Source: a virus (lineage: Duplodnaviria > Heunggongvirae > Uroviricota > Caudoviricetes). Taken from it: a stretch of 45,585 bases of DNA. How positions within the stretch are numbered: position 1 is the stretch's first letter; each line of letters starts with the position of its first letter. This document shows positions 3,040 through 3,660 of the stretch, one piece after another. Where the stretch lies: positions 1 through 45,585 of the IMG/VR virus record IMGVR_UViG_648276647_000019; one strand, 5' to 3'. The notes under the pieces are model-generated. The model was given only the letters and a program-made list of their open reading frames with translations, made no database searches and was not told the DNA's origin. The translations under genes were made by a program, and so were the position numbers.

Positions 3040-3318
3040 TTTGCTGCTCCTCATCATATCGACCCTGCAAGGTCGGTTGGTTTCTCCACAAAACAGAGAA
3101 GAACACCTGCGGTGGCAGCCGCCCGGATGGATTGGGTTATGAGCCCGTCGTCCGGTGATGCTCTTCTCTGTTTTGTAAAAAGAGCGGTACCAGCCGGAAG
3201 CAAGGGTACAAACTGGTACCGCCAGGACTACACACAGCAATGAAACTATTGCCTGTCTTTTCACCACTTCAGGCTCGGTGGTATGCTGGAGTTCTCACAC
3301 AGCCAGCAAGGAAACCTA

Positions 3319-3660
3319 ATGAACCAGTTTTATGTTCACGTTCGTCTGTTTGAAGCAACAGCCGAACAGACCAAAAAATTTGAAGAATTAATGCTTAACT
3401 TTCTGTACCAGAAAACAATCAAAGAGTCTGACGATAGCTGCTGCAGACTGATTCCAGAGGGATATATCCTCAAAAGCACAATGAACTGCCAACAAATCCT
3501 TGATCAAACTTTTTCCATTGCTAACAGTGCTGGTGTTGACGCAAATATATTTGTCTGCAAATTTGAACAAAGCGCATGCTTACTTCCGTCTGCTTCCTTA
3601 GTTGGCAACGATTTTGTTCATCACGATCTTACGCCTAAGCCCATCAAGCTCGATTCTTAA
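3319..3660 (+). CDS. Hypothetical protein (113 aa), opposite-strand AT-rich moron inside the early-left operon
   Basis: ATG at 3319 preceded by AAGGA; region is visibly AT-rich compared with flanks; overlaps the 3' end of the convergent minus gene 3598-3906 by 63 nt. Confidence 0.4.
   Translation: MNQFYVHVRLFEATAEQTKKFEELMLNFLYQKTIKESDDSCCRLIPEGYILKSTMNCQQILDQTFSIANSAGVDANIFVCKFEQSACLLPSASLVGNDFVHHDLTPKPIKLDS

What the first reader, a model, noticed from the sequence alone, without database searches (positions are those of the whole stretch)
3283..3660. AT-rich opposite-strand gene embedded in the early-left operon, convergent and overlapping
Among minus-strand early-left genes there is one plus-strand ORF (ATG 3319 with AAGGA RBS, 113 aa) of visibly lower GC, overlapping the 3' end of the first PL gene (3598-3906) by 63 nt. 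Lambda carries superinfection-exclusion genes in the analogous region, so this is a candidate moron or exclusion gene; it has no family I can name. GGTAC-containing motifs (about 3190-3230) upstream resemble the cI operator half-sites.
Basis: partly seen in the sequence, partly recalled or inferred. Interest (0 to 1): 0.5.

Follow-up and report, generated by a model that had tools for sequence, protein, structure and literature searches.

The report
YmfI: GhoS-like prophage moron gene
The opposite-strand ORF is ymfI, a real and already catalogued gene of e14-type E. coli prophages with no known function; here it proves to be a self-promoted "moron" cassette encoding a distant relative of the RNA-cutting antitoxin GhoS, always inherited with the early-left gene it overlaps.

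Summary
The ORF is real and lies as described: ATG 3319, AAGGA RBS, 113 aa, 39.8% GC against 52% for the window, and a 63-nt tail-to-tail overlap with the first PL gene. It is YmfI (b1143 of K-12 prophage e14; NCBIfam NF051477; phrog_8894), under strong purifying selection (dN/dS 0.07-0.22).

What I add to the annotation:
- **Missing GhoS features.** There is no GhoT-like toxin gene nearby, and the key GhoS Arg28 aligns to Glu in YmfI.
- **Moron cassette.** A 35-bp promoter block ending inside the -10 hexamer recurs in about 545 other E. coli genomes and, in three examined, drives other small ORFs.
- **Conserved position.** Relatives sit antisense in early-left operons from E. coli to a Pseudomonas phage.
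- **Linkage.** ymfI and ymfJ co-occur in 303/303 E. coli genomes.
- **The GGTAC motifs** are the stem of a minus-strand terminator, not operators.

Published data show YmfI protein in K-12, co-purifying with RNA polymerase. The function is inferred: a lysogen-expressed RNA- or transcription-directed factor, silenced on induction by antisense PL transcription.

The parts
3250..3287 (+). ymfI promoter. The conserved block TGCCTGTCTTTTCACCACTTCAGGCTCGGTGGTAT spans 3250-3284. It contains -35 TTTTCA (3258-3263), an 18-nt spacer and an extended -10 TGgTATGCT (3279-3287).
   Evidence: The block is nearly identical in E. coli, Salmonella, Klebsiella and Enterobacter copies, although the flanks upstream are unrelated. 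The same block, ending inside the -10, occurs alone in about 545 more E. coli genomes; in the three examined it precedes different small + strand ORFs. The promoter is inferred from sequence. No TSS data were available.
3288..3318 (+). ymfI 5' leader with a GCUGG...CCAGC stem and the AAGGA Shine-Dalgarno (3308-3312).
   Evidence: The fold is not better than shuffles (z = -0.8).
3319..3660 (+). ymfI CDS, 113 aa. Residues 1-~90 form the GhoS/DUF2622-like ferredoxin-fold domain. Residues ~91-113 form a tail predicted to be disordered.
3598..3660 (.). 63-nt tail-to-tail overlap of ymfI and ymfJ. The ymfI third codon position coincides with the ymfJ first position.
   Evidence: Variable sites split 6/2/7 over ymfI codon positions 1/2/3, so both frames look constrained.
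3598..3906 (-). ymfJ (102 aa, phrog_12693), the first gene of the PL transcript and the obligate partner of ymfI. Its C-terminal motif GVSRVYHDTMVKALRIEL... travels with ymfI.
   Evidence: ymfI, the ymfJ 3' part and the ymfJ 5' part are each found in 303 E. coli genomes. The motif-bearing part of YmfJ is absent from 50,697 phage records, as is ymfI.
3177..3222 (-). tL-type intrinsic terminator of the early-left transcript: GCGGUACCAG...CUGGUACCGC followed by UCUUUUU.
   Evidence: Perfect 10-bp inverted repeat (I13). Fold energy is -21.2 kcal/mol, z = -2.6. Equivalent hairpin plus T-run structures lie upstream of the slot in K-12 e14 and in loci L010, L014 and L021.
3997..4040 (-). PL promoter (TTGACA, 16 nt, CATAAT; 4040-4013) overlapping two OL operators (3997-4013 and 4017-4033; consensus TGTAyC-N5-GGTACA).
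4080..4754 (-). cI-type repressor (CohE/YmfK, S24 peptidase), with its terminator at 4049-4068(-).

Best explanation
The ORF is ymfI, a genuine protein-coding moron cassette of e14/SfV-type lambdoid prophages.

Shown here:
- It carries its own sigma-70 promoter with an extended -10.
- It is transcribed against the early-left (PL) operon.
- It ends 63 nt inside ymfJ, the first PL gene.
- It encodes a small soluble protein whose first ~90 residues are a ferredoxin-fold domain of the GhoS/DUF2622 superfamily (Cas2-like). A 22-residue tail, predicted to be disordered, follows.

From the literature: the protein is made in the uninduced K-12 lysogen and co-purifies with RNA polymerase.

Inferred mechanism: in the lysogen YmfI acts on RNA or on transcribing RNA polymerase. 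It may work as a GhoS-like sequence-selective endoribonuclease or as a factor bound to RNAP or nascent RNA. Either way it would keep particular phage early transcripts down, whether leaky PL transcripts of its own prophage or those of superinfecting relatives.

On induction, the immediate-early PL transcript (PL, ymfJ, then the terminator at 3177-3222) is a full-length antisense of ymfI. Collision and RNA duplex formation would then shut YmfI synthesis off, which is excludon logic.

Confidence by step: identity, coding status, moron status and superfamily about 0.9. RNA- or transcription-directed activity about 0.4. The specific target about 0.2.
For: Identity:
- NF051477 scores 162 bits against a cut-off of 140.
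- The DNA is 100% identical to annotated ymfI in many E. coli chromosomes and 95% identical to K-12 e14.

Coding:
- dN/dS is 0.07-0.22.

Superfamily:
- The AF2 core is confident.
- The YmfI profile against a 35-member phage family gives hhalign 98.9%, E 2e-17 over 91 columns.
- 15 of those 35 members hit Pfam PF11080 GhoS, and three scanned individually (P0037, P0040, P0093) score above its gathering cut-off.
- One member is named GhoS by NCBI.
- phrog_8894 unites them all.

Moron and promoter:
-, as set out under Parts.

Conserved antisense placement near the repressor:
- Salmonella, Klebsiella, Enterobacter, Yersinia and metagenomic prophages, plus Pseudomonas phage Cruim01.

Expression and RNAP link:
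- YmfI had high MS intensity in an RpoC-TAP eluate (PMC3942186).
- ymfI-ymfJ transcripts overlap in at least 50% of 58 MG1655 RNA-seq sets (PMC12288877).
- ymfI is not among the YmfT (e14 induction) iModulon genes listed in PMC12132413.

Terminator just beyond antisense-ymfI:
-.
Against: - YmfI itself gives no Pfam hit.
- Profiles of YmfI or of the phage family do not retrieve E. coli GhoS by sequence. The link to GhoS proper therefore rests on the Pfam model and on the fold.
- GhoS Arg28, described as the most important residue for RNase activity (PMC4010927), aligns to a nearly invariant Glu22 in YmfI, and to His or Tyr in the phage family.
- There is no GhoT-like hydrophobic peptide next to any family member.
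- The RNAP association rests on one pull-down.
- ymfI RNA rises rather than falls late in SOS (LFC +1.0 and +1.98; PMC11002266). Antisense read-through could explain this if those data are not strand-specific.
- No TSS, no phenotype and no biochemical data exist for YmfI.
Confidence: 0.45

Rival explanations
1. Effector-antidote cassette. YmfI is an effector harmful to lytic development (exclusion or abortive infection). The conserved C-terminal helix of the convergent immediate-early protein (YmfJ residues ~62-102) is its protein antidote, made only from PL. The resident phage would thus escape on induction, while superinfecting phages that lack the module would not. This is the logic of SieB/Esc.
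For: - ymfI and ymfJ co-occur in 303/303/303 E. coli genomes.
- The motif GVSRVYHDTMVKALRI(E/Q) is fused to three unrelated N-terminal domains wherever a YmfI-clade gene is present. This includes copies only 50% identical, where the overlap is just 14 nt.
- Phage records carry the YmfJ N-terminal domain alone, but never the motif and never ymfI.
Against: - Yersinia and Pseudomonas relatives have convergent partners without the motif.
- No interaction data exist.
- The YmfJ model is low-confidence (pLDDT 53).
- The linkage could simply reflect a shared recombination block.
Confidence: 0.15
2. Generic superinfection-exclusion or defence moron that acts by a mechanism not involving RNA.
For: - It sits in the same slot and orientation as Rac sieB (sieB-ydaF convergent pair; PMC12288877).
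- It is expressed in the lysogen.
- A more distant relative sits beside a Thoeris system (L018).
Against: - No PADLOC family matches.
- The protein is soluble and has no hydrophobic segment, unlike SieB (SieB's membrane nature is from my own knowledge, not tested here).
- The fold points to RNA and nucleic-acid biology.
Confidence: 0.15
3. Orphan GhoS-type antitoxin. YmfI would cleave or silence the mRNA of a host or phage toxin (GhoT/OrtT-type, or a PL-encoded killer such as Kil or DicB), protecting the lysogen or countering a host abortive-infection toxin.
For: - GhoS superfamily membership.
- Kil, or DicB plus DUF1482, lie just downstream in PL sense in two of the related lineages examined (L007/L008 and L010/L011).
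Against: - No GhoT-like gene is adjacent.
- The Arg28 equivalent is lost.
- In this window the downstream genes are yfdP, yfdQ and yfdR, not a known killer.
- GhoS proper is confined to E. coli and Shigella, whereas the phage family reaches Pseudomonas, Burkholderia and Ralstonia phages.
Confidence: 0.1
4. The protein is incidental. What matters is the antisense transcript, which damps ymfJ and PL expression by convergent transcription.
For: - Convergent overlap is conserved across the family.
- The pair is listed as an excludon.
- The same promoter drives unrelated small ORFs in the same slot.
Against: - Strong purifying selection acts on the protein (dN/dS 0.07-0.22).
- The fold is conserved over about 30% sequence identity.
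- The protein is detected by MS.
Confidence: 0.07
5. ymfI is a LexA-regulated SOS gene, as implied by its listing among genes with a 'potential SOS box'.
For: - It is listed in PMC6590174.
- It shows a late rise in SOS.
Against: - The only CTGT-N8-ACAG near K-12 ymfI is inside the coding sequence (TTCTGTACCAGAAAACAGTT).
- In this window that site reads ...ACAATC, so the box is broken.
- The induction is late and follows the cI-type kinetics of e14.
Confidence: 0.03

Closest known systems
YmfI (b1143) of E. coli K-12 cryptic prophage e14; NCBIfam NF051477 'YmfI family phage protein'; phrog_8894
   Same: It is the same gene. The window protein differs from K-12 YmfI at 3 of 113 residues. It has the same convergent partner ymfJ and the same CohE/CroE immunity region.
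   Different: In K-12 the upstream neighbours are ymfH, xisE and intE, because of a deletion. Here they are yfdP, yfdQ and yfdR. The K-12 leader has a 4-nt duplication. No function is assigned in any source consulted.
GhoS (YjdK), the endoribonuclease antitoxin of the type V GhoT/GhoS system (Pfam PF11080, PDB 2LLZ)
   Same: It has the same ferredoxin (Cas2-like) fold and is the best PDB match. It falls in the same Pfam superfamily through intermediate phage sequences. It is of similar size (~90-98 aa) and is a small soluble protein.
   Different: There is no downstream GhoT-like toxin. Arg28 aligns to Glu. YmfI has an extra 22-residue tail. It is monocistronic, prophage-borne and antisense to PL. 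There is no direct sequence hit between the two.
sieB of Rac/lambda and rexAB of lambda (lysogen-expressed exclusion genes in or beside the PL operon)
   Same: It occupies the same genomic niche and follows the same logic: a gene with its own promoter, expressed from the prophage, among early-left genes. Rac sieB likewise forms a convergent transcription pair with a small PL gene (sieB-ydaF).
   Different: There is no sequence or fold relationship, and no exclusion phenotype is known for YmfI.
HK022 Nun (a prophage-expressed factor that blocks transcription of superinfecting lambda). This comparison rests on my own knowledge, not on a test here.
   Same: Both are prophage-expressed small proteins encoded next to the immunity region. 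YmfI co-purified with RNA polymerase in one study.
   Different: Nun is an N-family arginine-rich-motif protein on the PL strand. YmfI is a ferredoxin-fold protein on the opposite strand. No termination activity has been shown.
Cas2
   Same: Ferredoxin fold. Several Cas2 chains are among the structural matches.

Membership tests
YmfI family phage protein (NCBIfam NF051477, equivalog) | HMM score above the curated cut-off (140 bits) | tested here: met
   162 bits, E 3.5e-48, covering residues 1-90.
GhoS / DUF2622 (Pfam PF11080) | Direct match to the Pfam model above the gathering score (21 bits) | tested here: not met
   There is no hit for YmfI even at E <= 10. Relatives P0040 (28.8), P0093 (25.2) and P0037 (24.2) pass.
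GhoS / DUF2622 (Pfam PF11080) | Homology through intermediate sequences (profile-profile) | tested here: met
   YmfI against the 35-member phage family: hhalign 98.9%, E 2e-17, 91 columns. 15 of 35 members hit PF11080. The link from that family to E. coli GhoS itself is weak (E 0.002).
GhoS / DUF2622 (Pfam PF11080) | GhoS-like ferredoxin fold | tested here: met
GhoS / DUF2622 (Pfam PF11080) | Catalytic Arg28 of GhoS conserved | tested here: not met
   In the alignments, Arg28 pairs with YmfI Glu22 (conserved in at least 90% of the family) and with His or Tyr in the phage family. The importance of R28 is taken from PMC4010927. The other four 'catalytic' residues could not be looked up, because the original paper is not held.
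Type V toxin-antitoxin system (GhoT/GhoS) | Adjacent gene for a small hydrophobic membrane toxin (GhoT/OrtT, PF10753) | tested here: not met
   No ORF of 25-90 aa with a hydrophobic 19-mer lies within -800/+600 nt in the window. None is consistently present in 8 related loci.
Type V toxin-antitoxin system (GhoT/GhoS) | The antitoxin cleaves the toxin mRNA | not testable with these tools
   This needs RNase assays.
Prophage moron | Autonomous promoter, independent of the flanking operon | tested here: inconclusive
   There is a conserved -35 / extended -10 block whose conservation stops inside the -10. In the loci examined it is shared with other cargo ORFs. The consensus scan did not flag it (8/12 hexamer matches), and no TSS data were available.
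Prophage moron | Present or absent among otherwise closely related phages, with atypical composition | tested here: met
   The flanks are 96-99% identical in SfV, SfIV, mEp460, cdtI and Stx2c phages, which lack ymfI. GC is 39.8% against 52%.
Prophage moron | Expressed from the repressed prophage | tested here: met
   From the literature only. YmfI protein was found in the RpoC-TAP eluate of uninduced K-12. The RNA is detected in at least 50% of 58 MG1655 data sets.
Superinfection exclusion / anti-phage defence | Match to a known defence protein family | tested here: not met
   There is no PADLOC-DB hit at E <= 0.1.
   The OL and OR sites have 0-2 mismatches. The site at 3186-3202 has 3 mismatches, which is chance level. 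The motifs are the arms of a terminator hairpin.

The most novel reading that the evidence does not exclude
ymfI, together with the 3' third of the convergent immediate-early gene, is a two-part mobile cassette.
- Effector: a lysogen-expressed GhoS-fold factor that targets phage early RNA or the transcribing polymerase. It would act as a new kind of superinfection-exclusion or lysogeny-guard function.
- Off-switch: supplied from PL in two ways, by full-length antisense transcription of ymfI and by the conserved YmfJ C-terminal helix acting as a protein antidote.

This would make the phage GhoS-like family (phrog_8894) a widespread family of 'type V-like' modules built into the genetic switch of lambdoid phages, from E. 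coli to Pseudomonas.
Probability: 0.15. Interest if true: 0.7.

Novelty: new member of a known kind. Interest (0 to 1): 0.4.

Why it matters
ymfI is a y-gene of E. coli K-12 with no assigned function. Placing it in the GhoS/Cas2-like superfamily gives the first concrete, testable hypotheses for it. So do the three context findings: it is a self-promoted cassette, it is strictly linked to ymfJ, and it sits antisense to the immediate-early PL transcript.

The analysis also extends GhoS relatives from a single E. coli toxin-antitoxin pair to a family of phage genes at a fixed position in the lysis-lysogeny switch region.

If YmfI does act on phage transcripts or on RNA polymerase, it would be a new exclusion or lysogeny-stabilising mechanism. 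If not, it remains an ordinary moron of unknown function.

Tried and rejected
- **Operator reading of the GGTAC motifs.** Rejected. It is a chance-level match, and the motifs are the stem of a terminator.
- **LexA box.** The 'potential SOS box' cited in the literature is intragenic in K-12 and broken in this window.
- **GhoT-like partner.** None was found.
- **Direct Pfam, PADLOC and Rfam searches.** These gave no Pfam hit for YmfI, no PADLOC hit and no Rfam family in 2500-5200.
- **tblastn of YmfI and of its 54%-identical relative P0031 against 50,697 phage records.** No match.
- **Profile comparison with a shallow E. coli GhoS alignment.** The result is weak (E 0.013-0.21). Profiles searched against PDB sequences gave nothing.
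- **Scan of GTDB representative genomes.** This returned only two E. coli loci.
- **Foldseek against BFVD.** No significant viral match. The afdb50 library was unavailable.
- **YmfJ.** No Pfam family. The single-sequence AF2 model is low-confidence and all-helical.
- **5' leader hairpin of ymfI.** It is no better than shuffled sequence.
- **Overlap region.** Substitution counts do not show which frame is the more constrained.
- **Papers not held.** Mehta 2004 (e14 analysis) and Wang 2012 (GhoS) could not be read.
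Full report
**1. What is in the sequence.**
The window is an e14/SfV-type lambdoid prophage of E. coli. Around the finding, the minus strand carries these genes:
- yfdR (1122-1670)
- yfdQ (1787-2611)
- yfdP (2677-3039)
- a 102-aa gene (3598-3906)
- an S24-peptidase cI-type repressor (4080-4754)

Cro, a YmfL/CII-like gene and the replication genes follow on the plus strand.

Its ATG is at 3319, and AAGGA lies at 3308-3312. It encodes 113 aa, ends at the stop at 3658-3660, and overlaps the 102-aa gene by 63 nt. Its GC content is 39.8% against a window mean of 52.0%, which puts it in the third percentile of same-size windows. 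The longer ORF from ATG 3283 is not the gene, because that ATG lies inside the -10 hexamer of the promoter.

**2. Identity.**
The ORF is ymfI. It scores 162 bits against NCBIfam NF051477 'YmfI family phage protein' (cut-off 140) and 1.7e-41 against phrog_8894. The DNA is 100% identical to annotated ymfI in several E. coli chromosomes and 95% identical to ymfI (b1143) of K-12 prophage e14. The 102-aa convergent gene is ymfJ (phrog_12693), and the repressor and Cro are CohE/YmfK and CroE/YmfT. So a family name exists, but no source consulted assigns a function.

**3. It is a real gene.**
I compared the E. coli, Salmonella, Klebsiella and Enterobacter copies. Pairwise dN/dS is 0.07-0.22, with dS up to about 1.0, in the non-overlapping 91 codons. 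YmfI-proper is confined to Enterobacteriaceae at 75-99% identity.

**4. What the protein is.**
- *Model.* An AlphaFold2 model built from 14 sequences has a confident core (pLDDT 84-94 in the structured blocks). The topology is beta-alpha-beta-beta-alpha-beta, which is ferredoxin-like. Residues 90-106 of the C-terminal tail fall below pLDDT 50.
- *Distant relatives.* An exhaustive profile search of 1.8 billion proteins adds relatives of about 92-96 aa that lack the tail. Two of these, P0040 and P0037, exceed the Pfam gathering score for PF11080 GhoS.
- *Phage family.* Searching with those relatives recovers a family of about 60 clusters. One member is named 'endoribonuclease GhoS [Yersinia enterocolitica]' and another 'DUF2622 domain-containing protein'.
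- *Profile comparison.* The YmfI-proper profile matches a 35-member alignment of that family at hhalign probability 98.9%, E 2e-17, over 91 columns. Of the 35 members, 15 hit PF11080. phrog_8894 covers YmfI and these relatives.

YmfI is therefore a divergent member of the GhoS/DUF2622 superfamily.

There are four caveats:
- YmfI itself has no Pfam hit.
- Neither profile retrieves E. coli GhoS by sequence.
- GhoS Arg28 is reported as the residue most important for RNase activity (PMC4010927). It aligns to Glu22 in YmfI and to His or Tyr in the phage family.
- No GhoT-like hydrophobic peptide gene lies nearby.

YmfI is thus GhoS-like in fold and ancestry, but it is not a type V toxin-antitoxin system.

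**5. It is a moron cassette with a portable promoter.**
I aligned the upstream regions of six loci. Their unrelated flanks converge on one nearly invariant block, TGCCTGTCTTTTCACCACTTCAGGCTCGGTGGTATGCTGG...AAGGA...ATG, which starts at window position 3250. It reads as -35 TTTTCA, an 18-nt spacer and an extended -10 TGgTATGCT. This block is more conserved than the coding sequence.

About 545 further E. coli genomes carry only the first ~40 nt of this block, in the same slot of related prophages. In the three examined, conservation stops inside the -10. A different leader and a different small plus-strand ORF then follow:
- In O157:H7 F8092B and in strain S56, an unannotated ORF of about 81 aa.
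- In strain CX07, an annotated 63-aa ORF.

Related phages (SfV, SfIV, mEp460, cdtI and the Stx2c phages) share the left flank (3040-3224, 98-99.5% identical) and the PL/cI side, but they lack ymfI. None of 50,697 phage records encodes YmfI. The promoter is inferred, because I had no TSS data.

**6. The GGTAC motifs.**
The true operators are 17-bp TGTAyC-N5-GGTACA palindromes. Two lie at OL (3997 and 4017), overlapping PL (TTGACA, 16 nt, CATAAT). Three lie at OR (4772, 4789 and 4822).

The motifs at 3184-3222 contain the hexamer, but no operator. The best match there has three mismatches, which is chance level. They are the arms of a perfect 10-bp inverted repeat. On the minus strand, this repeat folds into a -21 kcal/mol hairpin followed by UCUUUUU. 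Equivalent hairpin plus T-run structures lie at the corresponding place in K-12 e14 and in three other related loci (L010, L014 and L021).

This is a tL-type terminator. Without antitermination, the PL transcript would be PL, then ymfJ, then antisense-ymfI, then stop.

**7. Conserved architecture and linkage.**
Every YmfI-clade gene examined is convergent with a small early-left gene close to the repressor and overlaps it by 14-90 nt. The repressors themselves differ (S24-type or short HTH), and so do the other early-left genes (Kil, DicB, YdfE, YfdP). The same holds for a Yersinia prophage copy at roughly 30% identity and for Pseudomonas phage Cruim01. More distant members sit divergently from a cI-like gene, in one case beside a Thoeris system.

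The convergent partners are mosaics. Three unrelated N-terminal domains carry the same C-terminal motif, GVSRVYHDTMVKALRI(E/Q)... The motif is present even where the overlap is only 14 nt, so its conservation is not a by-product of the overlap.

Among 5,426 complete E. coli genomes, ymfI, the 3' part of ymfJ and the 5' part of ymfJ are each found in 303. Most of these carry the K-12 e14 allele. Phage records contain the YmfJ N-terminal domain alone, but never the motif.

**8. Expression data from the literature.**
- YmfI protein was detected at 'relatively high intensity' in an RpoC-TAP (RNA polymerase) eluate from K-12. It was scored relative to an RNase R-TAP control, and the authors suggested that it cooperates with RNAP (PMC3942186).
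- ymfI-ymfJ is listed as a convergent excludon, present in at least 50% of 58 MG1655 RNA-seq sets. Rac sieB-ydaF is on the same list (PMC12288877).
- After DNA damage, ymfJ rises late and strongly (LFC 4.05 and 4.83), while ymfI rises weakly (1.0 and 1.98) (PMC11002266).
- ymfI is absent from the YmfT (e14 induction) iModulon genes listed in PMC12132413.
- Its listing among genes with a 'potential SOS box' (PMC6590174) traces to an intragenic CTGT-N8-ACAG in K-12, which is broken in this window.

**9. Most likely mechanism.**
*Shown:* ymfI is a real gene with a foreign composition. It has its own conserved promoter block, encodes a GhoS-superfamily fold and faces PL. A terminator lies just beyond its antisense.

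*From the literature:* the protein is present in the uninduced lysogen and is associated with RNAP.

*Inferred:* YmfI acts on RNA or on transcription complexes in the lysogen. It would hold down particular phage early transcripts, either its own leaky PL transcripts or those of superinfecting relatives. On induction, it would be shut off by the immediate-early antisense transcript.

The rivals are set out with their tests in the rival-explanations section: an effector-antidote cassette with the YmfJ C-terminal helix, a non-RNA exclusion function, an orphan antitoxin for a GhoT-, Kil- or DicB-type toxin, a purely antisense-RNA role, and LexA regulation.

**10. Verdict.**
The 'moron' reading is right, the 'exclusion' reading is untested, and the operator idea is wrong. 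The gene is already catalogued (YmfI), so the feature itself is not new.

Four things are new:
- its placement in the GhoS/DUF2622 superfamily;
- the portable promoter;
- the conserved antisense position in the switch region of lambdoid phages;
- the strict linkage with ymfJ.

Interest is moderate at 0.4. It would rise substantially if the effector/off-switch cassette model proved true.

Noticed in passing
window 3082-3230, minus strand: Directly after the terminator hairpin, the early-left RNA can form a second hairpin with a ~25-bp stem (arms 3088-3112 and 3152-3176). The 149-nt stretch folds at -72.4 kcal/mol, z = -7.3. The DNA from 3040 to 3224 is 98-99.5% identical in many phages that lack ymfI. 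There is no Rfam match. It could be a processing, antitermination or stability element in the yfdP leader.
   Followed up: partly
L021 (E. coli O157:H7 F8092B) 2503-2820; L022 (strain S56); L023 (strain CX07) 2503-2766: The ymfI promoter block (up to the -10) occurs without ymfI in about 545 further E. coli genomes. In L021, and at the same position in the identically annotated L022, it precedes an unannotated + strand ORF of about 81 aa (ATG 2575) that runs convergently into a minus-strand gene. In L023 it precedes an annotated 63-aa ORF. The slot therefore holds alternative cargo behind one promoter.
   Followed up: partly
window 5997-8717, plus strand: There are three tandem isrK + C4 antisense-RNA units (5997-6184, 6636-6821 and 7914-8102; Rfam 64-85 bits). 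Each precedes a repeated segment that resembles an antirepressor. A c4-a1b1 target site lies at 6623-6675. The 594-aa ORF at 5637-7421 reads through two of these RNA genes, so it is probably not one protein.
   Followed up: partly
window 3401-3420; K-12 locus L002 4160-4179: The 'potential SOS box' that places ymfI on LexA-regulon lists is an intragenic CTGT-N8-ACAG (TTCTGTACCAGAAAACAGTT) in K-12. In this window it reads ...ACAATC, so the palindrome is lost.
   Followed up: yes
L018 4001-6793 and L019 4001-4767 (metagenomic and genomic contigs): More distant GhoS-like genes (P0117, P0130) sit divergently from a cI-like HTH repressor and are followed by a 151-154-aa gene. In L018 the next genes are a Thoeris ThsB/ThsA pair, which suggests a defence-island or satellite context for that branch.
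   Followed up: no
window 3598-3720 (YmfJ residues ~62-102) and loci L007, L009, L010, L012: The first early-left protein is a mosaic. One conserved C-terminal module (TPLPCxG..VSRVYHDTMVKALRIEL) is fused in frame to at least three unrelated N-terminal domains (phrog_12693 N-part, phrog_9419/1363 'MEFKDLP', and phrog_1744).
   Followed up: partly
window 4373-4389: An operator-like 17-mer with 2 mismatches (TTTCCCCACAGGGTACA) lies inside the repressor gene. It may be chance or an extra binding site.
   Followed up: no
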